IMG/VR virus record: IMGVR_UViG_3300029967_000162
Span: 32,001-96,000 of that record
DNA: 64,000 nt
Reading direction: 5' to 3' (one strand)
Source of the DNA: a virus
Lineage: Duplodnaviria > Caudoviricetes
The position numbers and the translations under genes are program-made. Shown piece by piece: positions 40,032 to 58,466 of this stretch (its first letter is position 1; every line of letters begins with the position of its first letter). The notes beneath the pieces are model-generated. The model ran no database searches. It saw nothing but the letters and a program-made list of their open reading frames with translations, and was not told the origin of the DNA.

Positions 40032-41345
40032 TTGGAAAGACTTGCCAAAAATAAATCAATTGCTGACTCTTACAGGCAGACTATGCAGAAGAGGCAGGGG
40101 CAAGTCTGCAAAGTGTACACAGTCAAAGTCCAGAAGAACAGGCTCAACAAAGTCCAAGCAGAGACTTTGAAGATGCAATTTGTTGAGGCTAAGTGGCTCT
40201 ACAACTATATTCTCAACAAGTCAATGGAAGGTGATATTAACATCTTTAAAGCTGACTATAAAGACTTCAAGAAGATAACACATCTTGATAAAGACCACAA
40301 TGAAGTAGAGGTTGACATATCATTTCTTGATTGTCAAGGCATGCAGAGCTTGATAACTTCTATCCAGTCTTCTATCAAGACTTTGCACAAGCTGAAGGCA
40401 TCTGGAAGCAAAGTTGGCAAGTTGAAGTTCAAGACTGACTGGACATCATTGAACATCAAGCAGTTTGGTGAAGACAAGATTAGGTCAAAGAACAAAGTCA
40501 AAGTTCCTGGCATTCGCAAAGAGCTAAAAGTGAATGGTTTAGACCAGATTTTGAATTCAAGGTATGGAAAGCTTGACATAGCAAATGCAAAGCTTATCAA
40601 GAAGAATGATGACTACTATGTTGCTATCACCTGCTTCATCGACAAAGACGTGTATGAAAGACTAAATGACAAATCTAGAACACTTTATAAAGAAATAGTT
40701 GGCATAGACTTTGGTTGTCAGTCCTCATTGACCTTTTCTGATGGAAGGAAAGTCAACTTGTCTGTTGAAGAAACTGAGCACATAAAGAGACTGCAGAGGA
40801 AACTTTGTAGGCAGCAGAAAGGCTCAAGCAACAGACAAAGGACAATCATGAAGATCAGGAAAGAGTACGAGAAGATCGACAACAAGAAGAAAGACTTAGC
40901 CAACAAGACAGTGCATGGCATCTTTGAAGGATACGGCCAAGTGTGCATCCAAGATGAGCAGCTGAACAAATGGAAGAGCCAACATGGCAAGAAAGTCCAG
41001 CACTCTTGCCTGGGGCTTGTCAAGCAAAGGCTAATCAACAATGGTGCATTTGTCATTCATAAATATGTGCCTACTACAAAGATATGTCTTGAGTGCGGTC
41101 ATGTTGTTGAAGACATGAAGCTCTTTGATAGGACTTTTAAGTGTCCCGTCTGTGGAAGCACATTAGATAGAGATGTCCATGCAGCACAGAACATGGTTTG
41201 GTATCACCAACACAAAGAGACCATAGGTGTGGAGCGCACCAAATTCAAGCGACTGGACTTCAAGTCACAGATGGCTAATCTGTTTGGCCATGATGTGTAT
41301 GAAGGATTTAAGGTCGAAGATGCTCGGTCTTCAGCCGAGCATTAG
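40032..41345 (+). CDS. tnpB: RNA-guided endonuclease TnpB
   Basis: GIDFG, IQDE, PTTKICLECG...CPVCG..LDRDVHAAQN. Confidence 0.92.
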   Translation: MERLAKNKSIADSYRQTMQKRQGQVCKVYTVKVQKNRLNKVQAETLKMQFVEAKWLYNYILNKSMEGDINIFKADYKDFKKITHLDKDHNEVEVDISFLDCQGMQSLITSIQSSIKTLHKLKASGSKVGKLKFKTDWTSLNIKQFGEDKIRSKNKVKVPGIRKELKVNGLDQILNSRYGKLDIANAKLIKKNDDYYVAITCFIDKDVYERLNDKSRTLYKEIVGIDFGCQSSLTFSDGRKVNLSVEETEHIKRLQRKLCRQQKGSSNRQRTIMKIRKEYEKIDNKKKDLANKTVHGIFEGYGQVCIQDEQLNKWKSQHGKKVQHSCLGLVKQRLINNGAFVIHKYVPTTKICLECGHVVEDMKLFDRTFKCPVCGSTLDRDVHAAQNMVWYHQHKETIGVERTKFKRLDFKSQMANLFGHDVYEGFKVEDARSSAEH

Positions 41346-42467: not shown

Positions 42468-42589
42468 CTTCAAGTTGTCTTAGAAAAAACTACATGTGTT
42501 TGTATCATTGGATGCAAGGAATGTCTCACATTTTGAGAGGACAAAGCCACTATCCCACTTTAAAAACTTTGACAAAAGAATTTTTGACA

Positions 42590-44251
42590 ATGGCAAAGAA
42601 GACAGCAACTGGAGACCCTGGGCAGATGAGTTCTGTGTTTGATCTCATAAAGAGCTTTGATGACTCAGCAGAGATCATCGCAGACAGTGCATACTCTAAC
42701 ATCAAAGAGTGGATTCCATCAGGCAACTACATATTGAATGCATGCATGTCTGGTGACTTGTTCAAGGGACTTCCTTCCGGCAGGACAATATCTTTGATTG
42801 GCGAAGAAGGGACTGGCAAGTCATATTTGCAAGTATCATTTTGTCGTGAAGCACAGAAACTTGGATGGGTCCCCGTGATATTGGATAGTGAGGGTGCGAT
42901 TGACTCTACATTTGTTGAACGGCTTGGTGTAGATCCCAAGAACTGCATCATCAAGCAGGTGAACACAATCTTTGAGACAAACAACTTCATATCTAACTTG
43001 GCCAAGTCTCTGCAAGAGCAGCAAGACAAGTATGGTGAGCACCAGAAAGTGATACTTGTGCTTGACTCTCTTGGCAACTTGACTTCAAGCAAAGAGCGTG
43101 ATGACACAATGGCTGGTGAGCAGAAGCGAGACATGACGAAGGCACAAGAGATTCGTGCACTGTTCAGGGTAAACCAAGTAGCATTGTCTAAGCTGCAGAT
43201 CCCATGGATTGTAATTGGGCATGTTTATGCATGCCTATCTAAAGATGCTGAAGTGCTTATGGCTGACAACTCAACAAAGAACATCAATGAGGTATCTATT
43301 GGTGAGAAAGTCATGACTCTTGCTGGTCCTAGAAAAGTTGAGTCACTTCATGAATATGAAGTGAAGAATTGCATACATTTTGTGTTTGAAGATAGTACTT
43401 CTCTCACTTGCACACCAAACCATATGTTTGCCCAATCTGTAGAAGATGGTGGATATATATGGGTAGAAGCAGCAAATTTGATTGAATGCGACACAGTAGT
43501 GCTCAAAGATTCTCATGAGCTTAGAATCACATCAAAGACAATCATAGAAGAACAAACAAAAGTCTATGACTTGACTGTGAGTGGTGAGCACACATATTTC
43601 TTGAAGAATGGAATCATATCACACAACAGCAATGACATGTTCCATCCAGGCCCTCAGCAGTCAGGTGGAGGTGGCATCAAGTACAACTCTTCTATCACAT
43701 TGCTCCTCTCTACTAGGAAGCTTGAAGACAAAGAGAATGATGCAGCGGCTGGCAAGAACATAGGCAACACCCAGACTAAGAATGGCATACTTGTCAGTGT
43801 GACACCTAAGAAGTCTAGGTTCTGTGTGCCTAACAAAGTCTCATTCCAGATTCCATTCTTCAAGGCACCTAATCCATATGTTGGGCTCGAGCAATACTTG
43901 AACTGGGAGAATGCAGGTGTATGTCGTGGCAATGTCCTTGATGAGAAGGCATATGCCAAGCTGAATGCAGCTGAGCAGGCTAAGTGCCATGAGTTTGAGC
44001 ATGATGGGCAAAAGCTCTGGTGCCAGCCTAAGGACAATGCACGTGGCATGGCGGTGAAGCATCTTGGACGGCAAGTCTCATTCATTGAGTTCTTCTCAGA
44101 TGTCGTGTTCACAGATGACTACTTGCATGAGATCAATGAGAGAGTGATCAAGCCAATATTCCAGCTGCCTTCACGAGATGCATTTGATGACATCAAAGAT
44201 GTTGAGGAGACACTTGGGATCGACCAAGAAGATGAAGAGACAACAGAGTAG
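42590..44251 (+). CDS. uvsX: RecA/UvsX recombinase containing an intein
   Basis: GEEGTGKS Walker A, LDSEGA, LDSLGNL, DMTKAQ, SGGGGIKYNSS, KSRF. Confidence 0.93.
   Translation: MAKKTATGDPGQMSSVFDLIKSFDDSAEIIADSAYSNIKEWIPSGNYILNACMSGDLFKGLPSGRTISLIGEEGTGKSYLQVSFCREAQKLGWVPVILDSEGAIDSTFVERLGVDPKNCIIKQVNTIFETNNFISNLAKSLQEQQDKYGEHQKVILVLDSLGNLTSSKERDDTMAGEQKRDMTKAQEIRALFRVNQVALSKLQIPWIVIGHVYACLSKDAEVLMADNSTKNINEVSIGEKVMTLAGPRKVESLHEYEVKNCIHFVFEDSTSLTCTPNHMFAQSVEDGGYIWVEAANLIECDTVVLKDSHELRITSKTIIEEQTKVYDLTVSGEHTYFLKNGIISHNSNDMFHPGPQQSGGGGIKYNSSITLLLSTRKLEDKENDAAAGKNIGNTQTKNGILVSVTPKKSRFCVPNKVSFQIPFFKAPNPYVGLEQYLNWENAGVCRGNVLDEKAYAKLNAAEQAKCHEFEHDGQKLWCQPKDNARGMAVKHLGRQVSFIEFFSDVVFTDDYLHEINERVIKPIFQLPSRDAFDDIKDVEETLGIDQEDEETTE
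43232..43627 (+). mobile_element. Mini-intein (132 aa, no homing endonuclease)
   Basis: Block A CLSKDAEVLMAD, block B CTPNH, block F VYDLTV..EHTY, block G NGIISHN followed by Ser+1. Confidence 0.93.
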
Positions 44252-48389: not shown

Positions 48390-49601
48390 TTAATTTGTGA
48401 GGGCAATCCTCACTGGCCTAGCCACAAGGCCTCTACTCCCTAGCAATGCATCAGGAGATGCTTTTCAAAACTTTCTTGCAATGTTGAGCGAACCATTCAC
48501 ATCAGCATTCAAGAGTCCAGTTGGGTCTTTGAACAATCCACGCTTGATCCTCTTCCCAGTTGGCTTGAAGAGTTCATCATCAACTTTCCAAGTTGGCAGA
48601 TAGTCATTGTTGAAGAAACTGCACTTTGATGTATAGCTTTCTTCTTGCAACACCACATTAATTCCTAACAACTTAGCCTTATATTCAATCATCTTCACAA
48701 ACTGTCAGAATGGTATCTGCACAAAATTCTGGTTTGACTTCTTTGACATGCTTGTGTCTTGTTTCCATCCTTTGTTGTAACCAACAATGATTGTTGTCAA
48801 GGAATGTTCAACGGCTTGATTCACAATCACTCTAGAAGCCTTGTGGAGATAGTCTTTGACTTTGTTGTTTCTTTTCAGGCTCAATGCTTTGACTTTGTTG
48901 CTTGATTTTTGCTTGTTTTGCTCTAACTTTGACTTATAATGTGCTAACTGTTTGTTATAGAATTGGTTGATTGACTTCAAAGGTTTCCCATCAATAATGA
49001 ATGCATTCACTCTATTAGAAGTACATGTTGCTAAGTTGTTTACCCCTAAGTCTATAGAAAGCCAATTCCCGTTCTGTTCTTTGAGTTCTTGTTCTTCTAC
49101 TTCATAGACAACTTCTATGATAAGATAATCACCTTTTGGTATTACTCTAACTTGCTTTAAATCATTAGTATGCTTTGAATTAAATTCTAAATTTGTCTTT
49201 GGTAATCTGATAATACCAATTTTCAAAAAGTTCTTGCTTAAAGTCATTGAATTATAAGTCAAGACAAATCTTCCTTTCTCTTTATCTAAATAACTAGGTA
49301 TCCTAACTTTTTTTCCTGATTTCTTCTTGAGCGACTGAAAAAATGACTTATAATTGTAATAGACTAACTTAAGTACTTCTTGTGATGTATTTGAAGGCAA
49401 TGCAAAGTAGTTCTCATCATGTCTGTCATGCAAGAGTCTGTTGAGGCCATAGTAGTCAAGAAAAGTCTTGTCTTTGAAGAACTGCTGCCTGACTTCATAG
49501 AGAGCAGCATTATAGAGGTTCTTAGACAAGAAGCACAAATGATCAAGCTCTTTGTAGAGCTTGTCTGCCTTCTTGACTATATGTTGCTCAACTAATTTCA
49601 T
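48390..49601 (-). CDS. tnpB: RNA-guided endonuclease TnpB, 403 aa
   Basis: SKNLYN, IDLGVNN, LHKAS, EESYTSKCS, RIKRGLF, NADVNGSLNI; two internal TGAs (48705, 48465). Confidence 0.9.
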
Positions 49602-49623
49602 TATTTAATAATCTCAATCATAT

Positions 49624-50226
49624 TTATTTATCTTCAAGCTTCAAATCTTTTTCAATGAGCTGCAACTTCTCTTTTCTTCTTGATGAGTACATCTTCATAG
49701 AGAAACAATGAATCAAAGAGATGATTTCTTCAAAGATTTCTTTCTCAATCTCTCTAGGATTGTCTATCTCATTGAGCACTACTATGTCTACTCCATACTT
49801 TTCAAACAAAGACTTGAAAGTCTGAAATGAGATTCTTGAAAGTCTGTCTTTGTAAGTTATGAAGATCTTGTTGATCTTGTATGATGTGACATCATCTAGA
49901 AGCTCTTGGAACCCGTCTCTATCAAGTGACATCCCTGAAGCAATGTCTTTGTAAATCTTTGAGACCTTTACACCATTCTTGAAGCAGAACTGCTCTAATG
50001 TAGAGATTTGATTCTCAAGGTCTTTCTTCTGGCAGGTTGAAGAAACTCTAGCATAGATTACATTGATTTGCTCTACATTCTTGTTAAGTAGTTTATAGAC
50101 ATCATTCTTGTTGTAGTCATATTGGCCGTTTGGTAAGGTCTTTGTTGATATTCAGCCTCTAGAGACATAATGACAAAGAGTAGGTCTTGTAATTTTTAAC
50201 AAAGACAATACTTCTTTAGCTTTCAT
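49624..50226 (-). CDS. tnpA: IS607 serine transposase
   Basis: MKAKEV HTH, IYARVSS, DIASG, YKDRLSR; one TGA in the HTH region. Confidence 0.9.
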
Positions 50227-50348: not shown

Positions 50349-50432
50349 GCCAATATGGGACAGTGGTCAACTCCACCTGCCTTGTAAGCAGGCTCTGTAT
50401 AAGATGCGCAAGTTCGAATCTTGCTATTGGCT
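50349..50432 (+). tRNA. tRNA-Thr(UGU) with long variable region
   Basis: Acceptor GCCAATA/TATTGGC; anticodon arm CCTGC-CTTGTAA-GCAGG; T arm GCAAG-TTCGAAT-CTTGC; 15-nt variable region. Confidence 0.8.
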
Positions 50433-50452
50433 CAAGATAAATTATCTTGACA

Positions 50453-51901: not shown

Positions 51902-52912
51902 ATGAAAATGAAGTTCATTCTAGGTGCTGCTGTTGCAGCATTCATGGTGGCAGTTGGATGCACTAAAGAGAATGTCCAGCTTGCTCCTGCACAGGAGATA
52001 ACAATGTCTCCTTACTACACTACAAGTGTTGCTACAAAGGCAGATGATAACGAGCATTCGTTTGCAACTACTGAGACCTTTGTCACTAAAGTGTACTATG
52101 ATGACAGCAAAGATGAAAATGGTGTCTATGTGCCAGAGTCTGTAGTGAAGTACACAGATCAATGGAGAGCTTATAATAATGAAGATGTTATGATGCACTA
52201 CTATTGGCCAGTTGATGGAAAGAAGCTGACTTTCTACTCTTACTACCCAGCAAGCTTGAAGTCTCAAGAGAATGCTCCTAAAGCTTGGATTACTAGCGTT
52301 GGTGTCAATGCAGAGTTCACTTCTCGTCCAGAAGTAGACTTCATGGTTGCTGACACGCAATGTGGCCAGACTGCTAATAGTTCTAATGACAACTACACAG
52401 GTGTTCCAACGATCTTCCGGCATGCTCTTGCTAAGATTGAGACTGTGCATTTGAAGTTGCAGGGTGCGCCATATAATAGTTTGTCATACAAAGTCATGTA
52501 TGTGAAGTTGACAGGCTTGAAGAATGGCACTTATACACAATCTGGTGAATCACATTGGAAATTGTCTGAAAATGATGAATATTCTGAAAATGATGGATAT
52601 AGTGAATTTCTTTATAATAATAAAGATGGCTTAGAGATCAACAAAAAGGATGGCGGTAGCTTCAATGTTAATAAGTTCTTCATACCTGGAAACAACTTCA
52701 ACATCACAGTTGGCTTCGAAGTTACTGGCTCTAACAACATAGTGCAAAAATTTGAGAAGACAGCAAGTGTTGAAAACCTTAGTATGCAAGAGAACTACAA
52801 CTACACCTTGAACATCACTAGAGGAAGTGATAACGACAAGCCGGTGAATGAGATCCTCTGGGCACCTTCTGTGAAAGATTGGATTGATGATACAATCAGT
52901 GTCACACTTTAG
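51902..52912 (+). CDS. Fimbrillin-like (type V pilin) lipoprotein
   Basis: Lipobox AVGC, TKA processing motif, YYWP..LTFYSYYP, FRHALAKI, C-terminal strand SVKDW. Confidence 0.82.
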   Translation: MKMKFILGAAVAAFMVAVGCTKENVQLAPAQEITMSPYYTTSVATKADDNEHSFATTETFVTKVYYDDSKDENGVYVPESVVKYTDQWRAYNNEDVMMHYYWPVDGKKLTFYSYYPASLKSQENAPKAWITSVGVNAEFTSRPEVDFMVADTQCGQTANSSNDNYTGVPTIFRHALAKIETVHLKLQGAPYNSLSYKVMYVKLTGLKNGTYTQSGESHWKLSENDEYSENDGYSEFLYNNKDGLEINKKDGGSFNVNKFFIPGNNFNITVGFEVTGSNNIVQKFEKTASVENLSMQENYNYTLNITRGSDNDKPVNEILWAPSVKDWIDDTISVTL

Positions 52913-52916
52913 ATTC

Positions 52917-54416
52917 ATGTCTCTCAAGTGGGTCGCCGCACTAGCAGTGACCCTTGTTGTCTTTGGGTGCTCTAAAGATGATGGCACTGCATATGATGCT
53001 CCCACACAACCATCTACATTGCCATTGCTCAGCTCATGGCAGGCCTCAACAAAAGCTGACAACGCACAAGATGAGCAAGCTTCTGCAGACACAGTTGCCC
53101 TTGATCACTCAAAGGCCTTCTACATGACCGCTCTGACAACTGATGATAGGAAACTCTGGTCATCATCAGATGCACAAGTCAGCTACGCAGAAGGCATTGG
53201 GTGGCATTCAGGATGATATTGGCCAGCAGAGCTAGACAGAGAGCTTGAGATTTGGACATATCCAACAAAGATGTGGACAGCTATAGACACAACTGCAAAG
53301 ACAGTCTCTGTCGCTCTAGATGGCAAAGATGACTTGATCTTCACAGCCACCCCATCTTATAGCAAAGGTCCAAACCCAGTGAATGTGAAGTTCATCCACT
53401 CTCTTGCAGGTGTGACTGTAAGCAGCAACATCAAGAACCCAAACACAAAGCAGAAGATGGCATGGGCAGAGCAGATCACTGCAAGCTACATGAACACTTC
53501 TGGCATCTGGGACTTCACCAACCAAAGATGGACTTCTCTGGATGGAAAGCAAGCAGAGGATGCAAAAGTAGGCTCTGTCTTCTATGTCACTCCTGGGCAG
53601 ACTATTAGCTTGCACCTTGAGAAGCTGCATGTCATCAACAACAATGATGAAGATGCTGCACAGATCCTTGACTATGACCTCAAGACACCTGTAGAAGTCA
53701 AAGAAGGTATGATGCATGAAGTTGTCATCAACATGAGTGAAGCTGAAGAGTGGGTTGACTTAGGCCTGCCTTCTGGCACGCTCTGGGGTACAAAGAACAT
53801 CGGTGCATGCAAGCCAGAGATGTATGGCAACTTCTACAGGTGGGCAAACTTGAAACAGCGAATGAAAGGAGACTCAAACACTTCAGACCCAGAAGCAAGC
53901 CAACGGCAGAGCAATGGAGAGATGCAAGACACCTATGACATTGCATACCAGATTCTAAAAGGTGAAGGAGAGACCCCAACTTACACTCAAGTTGAAGAGC
54001 TCAAGAAGTGGTGCAAGTGGGAGTGGATGGAAGAAGGCAACACTGAGTTCAGCGGAGTGCCAGGATTCAAGATCTATGCTTCTGGCTACTATAACACAGA
54101 CAGCAAGAGCACTTTCATCTTCATTCCTGCAAATGGCTACTATGATGACAATGGCTGGATGATAGACTACAACACTTATCAATACAAAGGCAGCACTTCA
54201 GAGCAAGGAGTGAAGTCTACAAGGAAGGGATCATACTGGACTTCTACCTACAACAATGGCACTCCACACACTCTCAACTTTGGTGCAGGATGGGAGACAA
54301 TGCCAGACAATGAATACCAGACTGGGCAGACCCCACATGCTCTTGGCATCAGGCCGGTGAAAGTACAGAAGATCTCTGGCCGTAACCCTAACCCAACCAG
54401 GAGCAACCAATGGTAG
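52917..54416 (+). CDS. Fimbrillin-like lipoprotein with C-terminal adhesin domain (tip pilin-like), 499 aa
   Basis: Lipobox VFGC, TKA, *YWP, FIHSLA; C-terminal WVDLGLPSGTLWGTKNIGA...YWTS...IRPV domain; joined via TGA53214. Confidence 0.78.
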
Positions 54417-54599
54417 CTCTCTAACTGCTTAGTATCCACCAGGACATCTTTTCCTGGCATAAACATGTCCCAACAAGAAAAGGTTTCTCATGGAAAATTG
54501 TCCTAAGAAACCTTTTTAATTGTCTCATATTCATTTGCTTAAACCGATTAAAATCAGAGTTGCCTCTATATAAATCATGTAAACAAACACAGAGACAAC

Positions 54600-54995
54600 A
54601 TGAGACACACATTCACTTCTATCATCGCTGCGATCGCAATTGCATTCTCTACCATCAGCTGCTCTGCTGAGAGATATGACATCGAACCAATGCCTGCAGA
54701 AGAAAGCCCTGCTTATGTGATGTACAAAGCAGTGTCTGCAGACTCTACCGACATCATGGAGATCTCAACTCTCACTTCTGTAGGTGTAGCAGACTTCAAG
54801 AGCACTGCCGAGTTTGAAGCAATCATAGGACCAGTGGATGCAAACACATTTGAGCCTTCAATCGAAGCAGTCTCTCAGAAAGATGCGGAGATCAAGATCT
54901 CTATCTACATCAGTGAGGACCTTGAGAGCTGGAAGCATGTCGGTGGCACGACAGGAGAAGCATATGCTGAAGTAGTGACAAAGATCTCTGAATAG
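54600..54995 (+). CDS. Small lipoprotein
   Basis: Signal peptide ending TISC. Confidence 0.65.
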   Translation: MRHTFTSIIAAIAIAFSTISCSAERYDIEPMPAEESPAYVMYKAVSADSTDIMEISTLTSVGVADFKSTAEFEAIIGPVDANTFEPSIEAVSQKDAEIKISIYISEDLESWKHVGGTTGEAYAEVVTKISE

Positions 54996-55183
54996 AAGGA
55001 AGACAATCTCATGTTGCCTAGATATGATTGATGTTAGGCATTGAGGTGTCGTATAAAGCTCAATACACAAGATTTTGGTTCTTGCAATCAGGGTTGGATT
55101 CCCTGCACCTCAACCAAGCATTGATCAAAGTTTTTTCCTATGCACTTGCTACATTAGCAGGTGCATTTTTAGCAAAGAAAGCC

Positions 55184-55414
55184 ATGTGCTTCAAGAAGAA
55201 AGACAAGACATATGTTGAAGTTGTAGGAGAGCATTGGCTAGATGAGACAAAGATGCTCTCATACAAAGAGTTCATTGCATGCAAGCACCCTTCTGAGATA
55301 AAGCTTTGCAAGCTCTATGAAAGTTTTGACGAGCTTGAGAAGACAAAGCAAGACCACAAGCATAGAATCTTTGATTTGATTCAGAAGTTCATTGATAAAG
55401 ATTACGGGATGTAG
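55184..55414 (+). CDS. Small hypothetical protein
   Basis: ORF whose stop codon overlaps the 5' end of tRNA-Pro. Confidence 0.45.
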   Translation: MCFKKKDKTYVEVVGEHWLDETKMLSYKEFIACKHPSEIKLCKLYESFDELEKTKQDHKHRIFDLIQKFIDKDYGM

Positions 55415-55555
55415 TTCAGTTGGCCAGAACGCTGGTTTTGGGATACAGAATGATTTACTGTGACAAATCAACATTGTAGTCAAGACGTGAGGTTGAAGAT
55501 CGAATCTTCCTACAATGTCAACCAGAGGTCGCGCGTTCGAGTCGCGCCATCCCGA
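55405..55555 (+). tRNA. tRNA-Pro(UGG) interrupted by a 77-nt insertion after position 37
   Basis: CGGGATG/CATCCCG acceptor; CTGGT-TTTGGG[77 nt]A-ACCAG anticodon arm; GCGCG-TTCGAGT-CGCGC T arm. Confidence 0.88.
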
Positions 55556-55590
55556 CAATTTAAGTTCAACATTTTAGACTTTCATATATC

Positions 55591-55845
55591 ATGCCAATTG
55601 GTCTCACACTCTTGATTGTGTTCTTGCTTGGTGGCTTGCTAGGCTACTCACTTCCATTCATGAAGCTCTACATTGACTTGAAGAATGACCCTGAGCTTCG
55701 GCAGAGGACTTATGATGAGATGGCAGATTGGTTCATCAAGCAGAATGACTGGGAATCTCTCAGAGAGCTGAACTGGTCAGAAGTATACAGAGGATGCAAG
55801 AAGAGGATGACTGACATGACTGGCAACATCGATGATGAGAGCTAA
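55591..55845 (+). CDS. Small membrane protein
   Basis: N-terminal hydrophobic helix. Confidence 0.65.
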   Translation: MPIGLTLLIVFLLGGLLGYSLPFMKLYIDLKNDPELRQRTYDEMADWFIKQNDWESLRELNWSEVYRGCKKRMTDMTGNIDDES

Positions 55846-55866
55846 AGACTAAAGCTTGGCACATAC

Positions 55867-55901
55867 AAAAAATCTCAGAGCTTTCACTCTGAGATTTTTT
55901 T
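55867..55901. terminator. Bidirectional terminator
   Basis: AAAAAATCTCAGAG-ctttca-CTCTGAGATTTTTT between convergent genes. Confidence 0.8.
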
Positions 55902-55904
55902 CTT

Positions 55905-58466
55905 CTATTCAGTGTTCTTTGGTATGTAGTTCGTATGGAACACTATGTCCTCAAGCATCTTCCACATTGTCGTGAGAGAAGCATCTATCCTGTCAGTCAA
56001 GCCCTCAAGTGAGTTGATTGATATGTTCATCACTTTTATAGAGCTGTCAGTTGCATCAGCAAAGTCAAACAGAGTGCTCAAGTTCTTTGAGTGCGTGGCA
56101 ACCTTTGTGCTCAAGTCTTTGAATGAGTCTGAGCCCATGATTGCATTCTCAAGGTTCACGACAAAGTTCTGTATGTAAGCGATGATGTAAGGAATCAGCT
56201 TCTCATAGTTGATGTTAGCAGTCTTGATGTCTGACCCATAGAGCACGCTTGTGTCTTGGCTCTCTACCAAGTATGTCAAGTCAACGCCATTTCATGAGCT
56301 GTCACCACCCCATGAAGAGCTGTTCAACGCTGGGCTGTCTGGGTCGACATAGAACTCAAGGATCCTGTCAGAAGAGTTCTGCACAGTGCCATCTTCAGCG
56401 ATGTACTTGTACTCAACATTCTTGGTTGACATCAGTATGTTGATGCCCGCATAGTAGAGTGGTGTCTGGCTTGCCTCAGTAGTCTGCCCACTTGGGTCTG
56501 ACACACTCACCATGTGCTCTTGCACGTCAAATATGGTTGAGAGGATTCTGCCAGCTTCTTCAGTCAAGGCACCTTCTTCATTCAAGAGAGTAGAGAATGC
56601 AGAAGCATCATCATAGTACTTGGTGACCTTGACATATGAGTCTATCTTGTTGAGAGTCGACACATCAAGATGGTCAATGTGCACCCCACTTGAGTCAAAG
56701 ATTGCCACTGTCTTGTACTCTACATCTTTGTATGCATATGCTTCAGTGTCATAAGTGTCAACTGCATCTGGCACCTGTATCAGCAAGACAGAGTCATCTA
56801 GTGTCTTGCCTGGCCTGATTGTAGAAGCATTCAGCACAGCTGTCGTGAGCACTGCTGCACGATCACCTGCCACATAAGATGCAAGAGCTGTGCTCAAGTC
56901 CTTCACCTGTGTAGCATAAGTGTCATATGCATTCACTACCTGTGCATAAGAGCTCTGGATGTTCTTTGTCGTGACGACATTGGTGTTCATCGCATCCACT
57001 GCTTGGCTCAAGCTGCTCAAGATGCCAGCGAAGTCAGAAGTGAGGAGTGAAGTCGTAGTCGTGTTGTCATTGACTTCAGAGTCGGTGTCGTCATAGACAG
57101 AGTTCGTCTTCACGTTCACACGGAATGCATAGCCAGTGCCAAACCCATTTGCATTGCTCATCTTCTTGGTGAGTGGTGGGATGCAGAATGAAGTCTGCTC
57201 TCCAGTCTCATCTCCAGACATGTCTTCAGGGGCATCCAAGAAGAGCACGCCAAACAAGTTGGTAGCTACAGGCACCTTAGTCGAGTTGGTCGTGTCATAG
57301 ACAGAGTAGTAGAGCAAGATGGCATTGAAGTCGAACTGGTCATCAGGAGCGAATGCATCTGGGGCCTTCACGTTCACGTCATCATAGCTGTTCACAATGT
57401 GCGTCACACCAGGCTCAAGCTTGTCCCAGATTGCAGCGATGTCGTTCACATCCTTCACAATCTCTACCCCATCAAGGTTAGATCTCCTGAAAGTGAATGT
57501 GCTGTCACCCTTGTATGTGATGTCATAGTTGATTGGGTCACTCTTGTCCCACTTCTGAGTTATGTATGCTCCACCAGTCTTCACATAGCTGAGCATGCTG
57601 CTCCACCAGAAAGCGTCATCGTCACCAGACCCATCGCTTGCACTCCATGAAGGAGTGTACTCGTCAAACGTGTCGGCGTAGTCAGACCATGGCACGTTGA
57701 CTGTGTATGTGTTCACGACATTCTCTGCTTCAGACTCACGGCCTTGCAGAGTAGAAGGGTTGTCATAGATGTATGCCTTGCCAAGCACATAGTTAGTCTC
57801 ACCATCGTCATCTTTCACCCTGAAGTAGACTTTGCCACCACCATAAGAAGTCGGCACAGCGACATAAGTCTCATTGAACATGCCAAACTCTGTAGACCGA
57901 GAGTTCCCAGCATCTATGGCCCCAAAGCACCTCACGACTTTCTGGTAGCCTGTGCGGTTGCCTACAGCCTCTATGCTGGTAGAGACATCCTGATCCTCCT
58001 CAAAGATCTCTCCACACCTTGTCGTCTTGATGTTGTCATCCTTCCACCTGATGGCACCAGTCTCCTTGAGTCACTTCCAGAAGACACGCTCAGACACAGT
58101 CTGCAAGTCTTGGTAGTTGTACTCATCTTGGTTCATCAAGAGGGTCTCAAAGTTCATCGCATAGTTCTGGAGAGATGCAGCGATGTGCCATGATGGAGAG
58201 TAGTCCAAGCCACCTTGCCCAGCTACATATGCAAACTCACCTGGTATGAGAGTTGGGTTGAAGAAGTTGACTGCCAAGTTCTTCTTGGTTGCAAGCTCTG
58301 TGTTGCTCTCTGGTATGTTGAGGAGAGCATAGTGTGAGAGGCACACTGTGTTGGCTCTTGCATTGAGGTTGAGCCCTATGTCTTCAGAAGCCGATGGGAA
58401 CACATAGAGGGTCCCACCTTGGCTCCTTGGTTGGTTGATGATTGGTGTCTTGTTCTGACTAGCCAT
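55905..58466 (-). CDS. Large virion structural (tail/baseplate-like) protein, 853 aa
   Basis: Three ORFs in frame via TGA58071 and TGA56292; late INYEKLIPYIIAYIQ resembles the intramolecular-chaperone helix of fibre proteins; ATAAATA upstream. Confidence 0.65.

What the first reader, a model, noticed from the sequence alone, without database searches (positions are those of the whole stretch)
55405..55555. tRNA-Pro(UGG) with a 77-nt structured intron-like insertion at the 37/38 position
Seen: both halves are canonical and pair perfectly. The insert (55443-55519) is too short for a group I intron. It contains ACAG/CTGT and a 9-bp ACATTGTAG/CTACAATGT stem enclosing a T-arm-like GAAG-ATCGAAT-CTTC, i.e. 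a tRNA-minihelix-like fold. Established: 37/38 is the canonical archaeal/eukaryotic intron site, and bacteria lack the splicing endonuclease. Inference: a phage-encoded splicing route, a decoy for anticodon nucleases, or a nested tRNA remnant.
Basis: partly seen in the sequence, partly recalled or inferred. Interest (0 to 1): 0.75.

Follow-up and report, generated by a model that had tools for sequence, protein, structure and literature searches.

The report
tRNA-shaped intron in phage tRNA-Pro
A proline tRNA gene of a very large gut-type phage is split in its anticodon loop by a 77-base insert made of a small RNA knot plus a miniature tRNA; this is the unexplained intron type first seen in Lak megaphages, and nobody has yet shown how it is removed.

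Summary
Rfam and ARAGORN (intron mode) both call a canonical tRNA-Pro(UGG) at 55405-55555, split by 77 nt (55443-55519) between G37 and A38.

The window is part of a 134-kb fragment of a huge myovirus (about 550 kb by CheckV's estimate). It is probably TGA-recoded and distantly related to Lak megaphages.

The insert is too small for a group I intron, has no bulge-helix-bulge motif and matches no Rfam ribozyme. It has the architecture of the 'enigmatic' Lak tRNA introns (Devoto 2019):
- a 5' hairpin starting UACAG, here extended to an H-type pseudoknot;
- an A-rich linker;
- a tRNA top half (acceptor-like helix plus T arm);
- one unpaired C just before exon 2.

A 12-member structural alignment (Lak, two other huge phages, this one) keeps all three helices, with compensatory changes in 17 of 18 pairs.

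Two related phages carry the same tRNA-Pro without the insert; a 99%-identical strain carries it unchanged.

Removal is not shown. My preferred, inferred route is cutting by tRNA end-processing enzymes (RNase Z-type cut after the C, RNase P at the minihelix) followed by an ATP-dependent RNA ligase.

This scan has already reported the same class on other DNA at least eight times. Verdict: real, a new member of a known but unexplained kind.

The parts
55405..55442 (+). tRNA-Pro(UGG) exon 1: positions 1-37, with the anticodon at 55439-55441 and G37 at 55442
   Evidence: Rfam RF00005, 53.4 bits; ARAGORN -i; sequence
55443..55519 (+). 77-nt intervening sequence of the Lak-type 'tRNA-shaped' class; equivalently 55444-55520, because an A flanks both ends
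   Evidence: ARAGORN intron call. It is the best match in the window to a model built from Lak introns only, with ends at 55442-55520. It scores 60.2 bits with model R3, which includes it. It is absent from the orthologous genes L043:4990-5066 and L047:1233-1307.
55444..55462 (+). 5' hairpin (pseudoknot stem 1): 55444-55448 pairs with 55458-55462, with a 9-nt loop
   Evidence: Sequence. The helix is kept, with compensatory changes in all of its pairs, across 12 family members.
55451..55470 (+). Pseudoknot stem 2: loop bases 55451-55456 pair with linker bases 55465-55470 (6 bp). The linker carries the family's A-rich motif.
   Evidence: The RNAfold MFE of the insert alone forms this helix. The closest relative (L096:1637-1716 = L106:852-) has a 5-bp equivalent in the same register, with three pairs changed on both sides.
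55471..55518 (+). tRNA top-half minihelix. The acceptor-like helix is 55471-55479 with 55510-55518. Inside it are a 15-nt connector (55480-55494) and the T arm: stem 55495-55498 with 55506-55509, and 7-nt loop 55499-55505.
   Evidence: Sequence. CM alignments. Covariation: 8 of 8 acceptor-like pairs and 4 of 5 T-stem pairs have compensatory changes. RNAalifold recovers both helices.
55519..55519 (+). Single unpaired C in the discriminator position of the minihelix, directly before exon 2
   Evidence: In 10 of 12 family members the insert ends with the helix plus one C, followed by the exon purine(s); two tRNA-Tyr members end in CU.
55520..55555 (+). tRNA-Pro(UGG) exon 2: A38 to discriminator A73. 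No CCA is encoded.
   Evidence: Rfam; ARAGORN; sequence

Best explanation
This is a real tRNA-Pro(UGG) gene of a huge phage, interrupted between G37 and A38 by a 77-nt member of the 'tRNA-shaped' intron family first noticed in Lak megaphages.

The insert has four parts: a 5' pseudoknot (a hairpin starting UACAG whose loop pairs with the A-rich linker), a tRNA top half (9-bp acceptor-like helix stacked on a 4-bp T arm), and one discriminator-like C.

Shown here:
- the anatomy;
- the family resemblance, including covariation in all three shared helices;
- patchy presence among close relatives;
- the lack of any self-splicing or archaeal-type signal.

Inferred:
- The primary transcript is cut by ordinary tRNA end-processing enzymes that read the embedded minihelix.
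- An RNase Z-type cut after C55519 would leave exon 2 starting exactly at A38 with a 5' phosphate.
- RNase P would cut at the 5' end of the minihelix, near 55470/55471.
- The remaining pseudoknot tail on exon 1 would be removed back to G37 by an enzyme not yet identified, possibly guided by the conserved knot.
- The two halves, held together by the outer tRNA's own stems, would be sealed by an ATP-dependent RNA ligase of the kind these phages encode in several copies.

My confidence is about 0.9 that it belongs to this family, about 0.55 that a functional tRNA-Pro is made from it, and about 0.3 for the specific RNase P/Z plus ligase route. The single figure given for this explanation (0.45) is for the statement as a whole.
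For: The tRNA and insert are confirmed.

Family resemblance:
- The four Lak introns of Devoto 2019, Table S6, fetched by reference, share the same order of parts.
- A covariance model built from three Lak introns only gives, as its best match in the 64-kb window, 55442-55520, full length, at 21.3 bits. The fourth known Lak intron scores 21.8.
- A descriptor of the shared parts hits the window and the 134-kb record once each, at the insert, and 0 of 100 shuffles.
- An IMG/VR scan plus model R3 found further members in a 235-kb phage (four), a 249-kb phage, and Lak-type contigs, including another tRNA-Pro(UGG).
- In the 12-member alignment 97.6% of cells are paired, 17 of 18 pairs have changes on both sides, 0 of 500 shuffles reach this, and slid controls give 30-45% paired. 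RNAalifold finds the same three helices.

Exons look functional:
- Against the insert-free orthologues L043 and L047, the D stem, anticodon stem and T stem differ by paired changes and remain fully complementary.
- In the 235-kb phage the Tyr(GUA), Lys(UUU) and Thr(UGU) genes exist only in interrupted form within the record.

End chemistry:
- Complete Lak genomes and the other intron-bearing records have no EndA-type endonuclease and no RtcB.
- They do have several PF09414 ATP-dependent RNA ligases, one sitting inside the tRNA array of the 235-kb phage. Lak-A1 is annotated with T4 Rnl2 and a CCA-adding enzyme. Ligases of this kind join 3'-OH to 5'-phosphate, the ends that RNase P and RNase Z leave (established enzymology).

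3' junction rule: helix plus C, then the exon, in 10 of 12 members.
Against: - No RNA data: no sequencing run could be listed, so neither splicing nor expression is shown.
- The Lak-only model's E-value is weak (0.32 over 160 kb). Membership rests on architecture, exact boundaries and covariation, and the alignments were fitted by the model.
- The insert alone is no more stable than shuffles (z = -0.88).
- RNase P at the minihelix would leave about 28 nt on exon 1, and I have no enzyme for the precise 5' cut.
- Only two bases separate the proposed RNase Z site from the anticodon stem.
- The T loop starts with A instead of the usual U.
- PF09414 ligases also occur in relatives where the model found no such introns, so the ligase link is not specific.
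- No ligase, CCA enzyme or RtcB lies in the 134 kb held, though that is only about 24% of the genome.
- Pseudoknot stem 2 is supported by only two sequences.
- Lak-A1 has an intact tRNA-Tyr beside the interrupted one, so interrupted copies need not be essential.
Confidence: 0.45

Rival explanations
1. Selfish insertion with no splicing. A mobile tRNA-like element landed in the anticodon loop and killed the tRNA-Pro gene. RNase P and RNase Z release only the inner tRNA-like RNA (the element's own product, or junk), and the outer halves are degraded. Phage tRNAs are dispensable, so the broken gene persists.
For: - Presence/absence among close relatives: L043 and L047 lack it.
- Homology with L047 breaks across 55275-55525, so the insert sits in a swapped cassette.
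- Family members sit in at least seven different tRNA species, which implies mobility.
- Lak-A1 keeps an intact tRNA-Tyr next to the interrupted one.
- One Lak intron is itself a complete tRNA.
Against: - All stems of the outer tRNA remain perfectly paired despite many paired differences from the insert-free orthologues.
- In the 235-kb phage three isoacceptors exist only in interrupted form.
- The insert always ends so that removal after the C restores a 7-nt anticodon loop.
- Devoto 2019 reports the intron sequences as typically identical between Lak genomes from different cohorts that differ elsewhere (A1 against A2 and C1: 0.95 and 0.88 ANI over the aligned region).
Confidence: 0.25
2. A new small self-cleaving or self-splicing RNA. 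[quoted passage not shown]
For: - Sequence, not only pairing, is conserved in the 5' hairpin and linker across distant phages.
- Small HDV-like theta ribozymes already process tRNA 3' ends in recoded gut phages (PMC10879173).
- Bacteroides thetaiotaomicron, the control genome of the phylum I infer as host, does have RtcB (control line).
Against: - No match to any Rfam ribozyme family at E up to 10 in 55380-55600.
- The 5' module is only about 27 nt.
- The hairpin loop and linker vary in length and sequence between subfamilies.
- The phages carry ATP-dependent ligases rather than RtcB.
Confidence: 0.08
3. Archaeal/eukaryal-type protein splicing: a splicing endonuclease recognises a bulge-helix-bulge at the 37/38 site.
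For: The position one base 3' of the anticodon is the canonical site of that system (established knowledge).
Against: - The bases that would have to form the central 4-bp helix and the two 3-nt bulges are not complementary in either junction register (read).
- Most family members sit at 36/37.
- There is no PF01974 endonuclease in this record or in complete Lak genomes.
- The phage is a tailed virus with a Bacteroidota-type fimbrillin gene.
Confidence: 0.02
4. DNA-level miniature transposon (IS200/IS605-type PATE or other MITE) mobilised by the TnpB/IS607-like genes in the window, with no RNA-level role.
For: TnpB-like genes lie at 40032-41345 and 48705-49601, the latter next to a resolvase gene. 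A TnpB gene also sits in the tRNA array of the 235-kb phage.
Against: - There is a single copy in 134 kb, with no second copy even at low stringency.
- The conserved T-loop motif and helix covariation indicate selection on an RNA fold.
- It is found only in tRNA anticodon loops, always in the sense orientation.
Confidence: 0.04

Closest known systems
'Enigmatic' tRNA introns of Lak megaphages (Devoto et al. [quoted passage not shown] 4, Table S6)
   Same: Both are 77-114-nt inserts in the anticodon loop of otherwise canonical huge-phage tRNA genes. The order of parts is the same: 5' hairpin, A-rich linker, acceptor-like helix, T arm, one C. Both are patchily present between related genomes, have no Rfam match, and have no known way of removal.
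   Different: - The host tRNA here is Pro(UGG), which is not in the paper's list, although I found a Lak-type contig with an interrupted tRNA-Pro (L073).
- The position is 37/38 rather than 36/37.
- The hairpin loop is 9 nt and forms a 6-bp pseudoknot with the linker.
- The T loop starts with A.
- The central connector is reduced to 15 nt.
- The phage is a distant relative: about 37% identity in a shared structural protein, 43% against 26% G+C, and TGA rather than TAG apparently recoded.
Archaeal and eukaryal tRNA introns cut at a bulge-helix-bulge motif by the EndA/Sen endonuclease
   Same: Both are short, non-catalytic and lie next to the anticodon; exon ligation by a protein is needed.
   Different: There is no bulge-helix-bulge and no EndA homologue. 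The host is bacterial. The insert carries its own tRNA-like fold instead.
Bacterial group I introns in tRNA anticodon loops (e.g. cyanobacterial tRNA-Leu(UAA), Azoarcus tRNA-Ile)
   Same: These are the only established intron type of bacterial and phage tRNA genes, and they also sit in the anticodon loop.
   Different: Group I introns are at least about 200 nt with a P3-P9 catalytic core. This insert is 77 nt and gives no RF00028 match.
mascRNA/MALAT1-type processing, and permuted or nested tRNA precursors cut by RNase P and RNase Z
   Same: An embedded tRNA-like fold is used as a cutting signal for RNase P (5') and RNase Z (3'). This is the working model proposed here.
   Different: In those systems the flanks are not rejoined. 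Here both flanks would have to be religated to make a tRNA.
Theta (minimal HDV-like) ribozymes next to tRNAs of recoded gut phages (Kienbeck et al. 2024, PMC10879173)
   Same: They occur in the same kind of phages (gut, Bacteroidota-linked, stop-codon recoded) and are small RNA devices that shape phage tRNA maturation. The phages carrying them are enriched in RNA ligase and CCA-adding genes.
   Different: Theta ribozymes lie after the tRNA 3' end and self-cleave. This element lies inside the anticodon loop and shows no HDV-like fold.

Membership tests
Lak-type tRNA-shaped tRNA introns | Insert inside the anticodon loop, 3' of the anticodon, of an otherwise canonical phage tRNA gene | tested here: met
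   RF00005 at 53.4 bits with an 80-nt loop insertion; ARAGORN intron call
Lak-type tRNA-shaped tRNA introns | Embedded tRNA top half: acceptor-like helix directly continuous with a T arm whose 7-nt loop resembles UUCGAAU | tested here: met
   55471-55518. It aligns column for column with the Lak introns. 12 of 13 pairs in these two helices have compensatory changes. One deviation: the first loop base is A.
Lak-type tRNA-shaped tRNA introns | 5' hairpin beginning W-U-A-(A)-C, followed by an A-rich linker with an AAAUYAA-like motif | tested here: met
   55443-55470. The same motif occurs in the Lak Phe intron and in the 235-kb phage members.
Lak-type tRNA-shaped tRNA introns | Insert ends with one unpaired C, then the exon purine(s), so that removal restores a 7-nt loop | tested here: met
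   C55519 then A55520; 10 of 12 members follow this rule
Lak-type tRNA-shaped tRNA introns | Recovered by a covariance model trained on Lak introns alone | tested here: inconclusive
   It is the best match in the window with exactly matching ends, but only 21.3 bits and E = 0.32. The held-out fourth Lak intron scores the same.
Lak-type tRNA-shaped tRNA introns | Present or absent between closely related phages, unchanged where present | tested here: met
   Absent in L043 and L047. Identical in L044 and in L048, which has 15 differences in 1325 nt and none in the insert.
Lak-type tRNA-shaped tRNA introns | Removed from the RNA to give a working tRNA | not testable with these tools
   No sequencing run could be listed. 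This has not been shown for any member in the literature I searched.
Archaeal/eukaryal BHB introns | Bulge-helix-bulge (3-nt bulge, 4-bp helix, 3-nt bulge) spanning both splice sites | tested here: not met
   In both possible registers, loop bases 32-35 or 33-36 are not complementary to the four insert bases that precede the last two (read).
Archaeal/eukaryal BHB introns | EndA/Sen-type splicing endonuclease available | tested here: not met
   PF01974 is absent from this record, two complete Lak genomes and two other intron-bearing records, while the archaeal controls ring. The host was not tested.
Group I introns | Catalytic core (P3-P9), length of about 200 nt or more | tested here: not met
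   77 nt; no Rfam match other than tRNA at E up to 10
Known small self-cleaving ribozymes (HDV-like/theta, hammerhead, twister, pistol, hatchet) | Match to the family's covariance model | tested here: not met
   cmscan of 55380-55600 at E up to 10 returns only tRNA. The 9-nt loop cannot hold the P2/P3 strands of an HDV-like fold.
IS200/IS605-derived miniature elements (PATE/MITE) | Several dispersed copies, in either orientation, not tied to one gene type | tested here: not met
   One copy in 134 kb. All family members lie in tRNA anticodon loops in the sense orientation.

The most novel reading that the evidence does not exclude
These tRNA-shaped inserts define a third way of splicing tRNA, found in bacteria and their viruses. 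The intron marks its own cut sites by imitating a tRNA. The cell's ordinary RNase P and RNase Z (plus a knot-guided 5' cut) excise it, and a phage ATP-dependent RNA ligase reseals the anticodon loop. That could make supply of the tRNA depend on a phage-timed enzyme, in a phage that also switches genetic code during infection.
Probability: 0.28. Interest if true: 0.85.

Novelty: new member of a known kind. Interest (0 to 1): 0.55.

Why it matters
Bacteria and their viruses are thought to have only self-splicing introns in tRNA genes. A conserved, mobile, 77-114-nt insert that cannot splice itself, yet sits in intact tRNA genes, implies either a protein-based tRNA splicing route not yet described for bacteria or a new kind of selfish element that targets anticodon loops. 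In one phage these interrupted genes are the only copies for three isoacceptors.

This example is useful for experiments. It is the shortest member I saw, it has a clean pseudoknot, its predicted cut sites are precise to the base, and natural insert-free alleles exist for comparison.

It also shows that the family reaches beyond Lak, into a phage with 43% G+C and apparent TGA recoding. The class itself was published in 2019 and has been reported repeatedly by this scan, so the gain here is in breadth and detail, not in discovery.

Tried and rejected
- Sequencing runs: none was listed for 53500-57500, so no reads could be laid.
- GenBank phage collection, distant mode, 1 kb around the gene: no match.
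- Exact exon-gap-exon pattern in IMG/VR: none.
- Protein 53271-54416 as a bait for related loci: none.
- Bait 56292-57935 gave only 35-41% relatives with no tRNA nearby.
- ARAGORN intron calls in those relatives (Glu i71, Asn i26, Ile i15, Thr i143, Leu i85) look like other things or false calls. Model R3 finds no family member in G001-G004.
- MAFFT alignments of the Lak introns put the 5' hairpins out of register, so I seeded a model from one intron and re-aligned by structure.
- The single-sequence model R1 gave E = 1.3 for this insert.
- Folding energy of the insert alone is not unusual.
- The hairpin-linker is not a general leader of stand-alone tRNA genes in this phage or in Lak-A1. An apparent extra hit in Lak-A2 was two adjacent tRNAs.
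- RNA ligase presence does not separate phages with and without these introns.
- A second IMG/VR pattern for the pseudoknot subfamily found only the already known relative plus chance hits.
- A loop-linker pseudoknot in the 6-nt-loop members is not consistent in position.
- Literature searches found no paper explaining removal.

Full report
**1. What is there**

Rfam's tRNA model matches 55405-55555 on the + strand at 53.4 bits (cut-off 29). It covers all 71 model positions, with 80 extra bases in the anticodon loop. ARAGORN misses the gene by default. With introns allowed it calls tRNA-Pro(tgg) with a 77-nt intron.

From the sequence:
- Exon 1 is 55405-55442, with the anticodon at 55439-55441 and G37 at 55442.
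- The insert is 55443-55519.
- Exon 2 is 55520-55555. No CCA is encoded.
- An A flanks both ends, so the junction is ambiguous by one base.

In addition, loop bases 55451-55456 of the 5' hairpin are fully complementary to linker bases 55465-55470. RNAfold forms this helix when the insert is folded alone. Together with the hairpin (55444-55448 with 55458-55462) it gives a compact H-type pseudoknot.

**2. Context**

The window is bases 32001-96000 of a 134-kb IMG/VR virus record that CheckV rates 24% complete, which implies roughly 550 kb.
- It encodes a tail sheath, baseplate wedge, T4-type prohead protease, a UvsX-like recombinase with an intein, and a Bacteroidota-type fimbrillin-like protein.
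- Long genes close only when TGA is read through. For example, 55905-58466(-) gives 853 aa with two TGA. This agrees with earlier notes of this scan.
- The neighbouring structural protein has about 37% identical relatives on 540-555-kb contigs, the size of Lak megaphages.

**3. What it is not**

- 77 nt is too short for a group I intron.
- A permissive Rfam scan of 55380-55600 finds nothing but the tRNA.
- The bases that would need to pair for a bulge-helix-bulge do not pair, in either register.
- No EndA-type endonuclease is found in this record, in two complete Lak genomes or in two other intron-bearing records.
- The insert occurs once in the 134 kb, so it does not behave like a miniature transposon.
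- It stands in three independent assemblies, so it is not an assembly error.

**4. What it is**

Devoto et al. 2019 (PMC6784885) reported that Lak megaphages have tRNAs with 'enigmatic' introns, one of which may itself encode a tRNA. They found these introns present or absent between related genomes and typically identical where present. Table S6 gives four: Tyr, Phe, Thr and Gly.

I fetched them by reference from Lak-A1 and Lak-A2. All show the same order of parts as our insert:
- one or two bases;
- a hairpin beginning UAC or UAAC;
- an A-rich linker;
- a 7-9-bp acceptor-like helix that runs straight into a T arm;
- one C, then the exon.

A covariance model made from three Lak introns only returns, as its best match in the whole window, 55442-55520 over its full length. 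The score is 21.3 bits and E = 0.32. The held-out fourth Lak intron scores 21.8. So the model is weak, but it treats our insert like a known member and finds its ends independently of the tRNA call.

A plain descriptor of the shared parts hits the window and the 134-kb record once each, at the insert, and none of 100 shuffled windows. I relaxed two features of that descriptor, the loop length and the first T-loop base, to admit our insert.

**5. The family is wider than Lak**

A pattern scan of IMG/VR followed by model R3 found further members:
- four in a 235-kb phage (two Tyr, Lys UUU, Thr UGU);
- one in a 249-kb phage (Phe);
- Lak-type contigs with the Gly intron;
- notably, another interrupted tRNA-Pro(UGG), at L073:4169-4260.

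In the 12-member structural alignment, 97.6% of pair cells are standard pairs and 17 of 18 pairs have changes on both sides. No shuffle of 500 reaches this, and sliding the partners by 1-3 columns drops pairing to 30-45%. RNAalifold predicts the same three helices on its own. One caveat applies: the alignment was fitted by the model.

A fifth interrupted tRNA in the 235-kb phage (L096:1637-1716) is the closest relative of our insert. It has an identical stem 1 and a 9-nt loop, and its stem 2 sits in the same register with three compensatory pairs. That supports the pseudoknot, on two sequences only.

**6. Evolution at this locus**

- A strain 98.9% identical over 1325 nt carries the insert unchanged. 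It shows 15 differences in total: two in the D loop and none in the insert. With so few differences this is not significant on its own.
- Two relatives have an uninterrupted tRNA-Pro(UGG) at the same place. One is L047, whose downstream protein is 89% identical. The other is L043.
- Compared with them, our gene differs in the D stem, the whole anticodon stem and the T stem, always by paired changes, and every stem stays perfect.
- Homology with L047 breaks between 55275 and 55525. The insert therefore lies in an exchanged block whose right edge is inside the tRNA gene.
- This fits spread by recombination between phages, and selection for a foldable outer tRNA.
- In the 235-kb phage, Tyr(GUA), Lys(UUU) and Thr(UGU) are present only as interrupted genes, which argues that interrupted genes are used.

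**7. How it may work (inferred)**

The embedded minihelix is the minimal kind of substrate that RNase P and RNase Z accept (established knowledge).
- A cut after the discriminator-like C55519 would produce exon 2 starting exactly at A38. The same rule restores a 7-nt loop in 10 of 12 members.
- Both enzymes leave 3'-OH and 5'-phosphate, the ends joined by ATP-dependent RNA ligases.
- Intron-bearing phages carry several PF09414 ligases and no RtcB. One ligase gene lies inside the tRNA array of the 235-kb phage. Lak-A1 is annotated with Rnl2 and a CCA-adding enzyme.

The weak points are:
- The exact 5' cut has no enzyme. RNase P would leave the pseudoknot on exon 1.
- The ligases also occur in relatives without detectable introns.
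- There is no RNA evidence at all.

**8. Standing**

The kind is published but unexplained. I found no later paper that explains removal. This scan has already reported the same class on other DNA at least eight times, with the same proposed route. Those are unchecked AI notes and are not independent support. One of them led me to test the pseudoknot. I class this finding as a new member of a known kind.

Noticed in passing
window 50349-50433 (+): tRNA-Thr(UGU) of 85 nt with about 12 extra bases at the variable-arm position, which is unusual for a threonine tRNA. tRNA-Met follows 19 nt later, after a small hairpin.
   Followed up: no
window 48705-49932 (-) and 40032-41345 (+): An IS607-like pair (resolvase plus TnpB/OrfB_IS605 with a TNB domain) lies beside the tRNA-Thr/Met cluster, and a second TnpB-like gene lies 8 kb upstream. 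A TnpB gene also sits next to the RNA ligase inside the tRNA array of the 235-kb phage (L080:2110-3342).
   Followed up: partly
window 42494-44251 (+): A UvsX/RecA-like recombinase gene is interrupted by an intein (Hint and intein-splicing domain matches).
   Followed up: no
window 52752-54416 (+), 55905-58466 (-): Long genes become whole only if TGA is read as a residue (4 and 2 in-frame TGA). This is consistent with TGA-to-Trp recoding. No UCA-anticodon tRNA lies in the 134 kb held.
   Followed up: partly
window 55275-55525 against L047:874-1276: Homology with a roughly 91%-identical relative is lost over a block that covers the end of the upstream small ORF, exon 1, the insert and the anticodon stem. 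It resumes inside the tRNA gene.
   Followed up: partly
window 55412-55414: The stop codon TAG of the small upstream ORF (55028-55414 as listed; its true start is later, since it overlaps tRNA-Gln) lies inside the acceptor stem of tRNA-Pro.
   Followed up: no
L096:1597-1749 (= L106:817-969; IMGVR_UViG_3300021431_004524): The fifth interrupted tRNA of the 235-kb phage has a 5-nt direct repeat at both junctions, so its anticodon is ambiguous. One reading gives CUA (amber suppressor); others give CUU, CCU or UCU.
   Followed up: partly
L046:2243-2347 and 2357-2477 (Lak-A2); the same pair in L014 and L073: Two adjacent over-long (104-120 nt) tRNA-like genes are conserved in Lak-type phages. They carry internal extra segments that do not belong to the family described here.
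   Followed up: no
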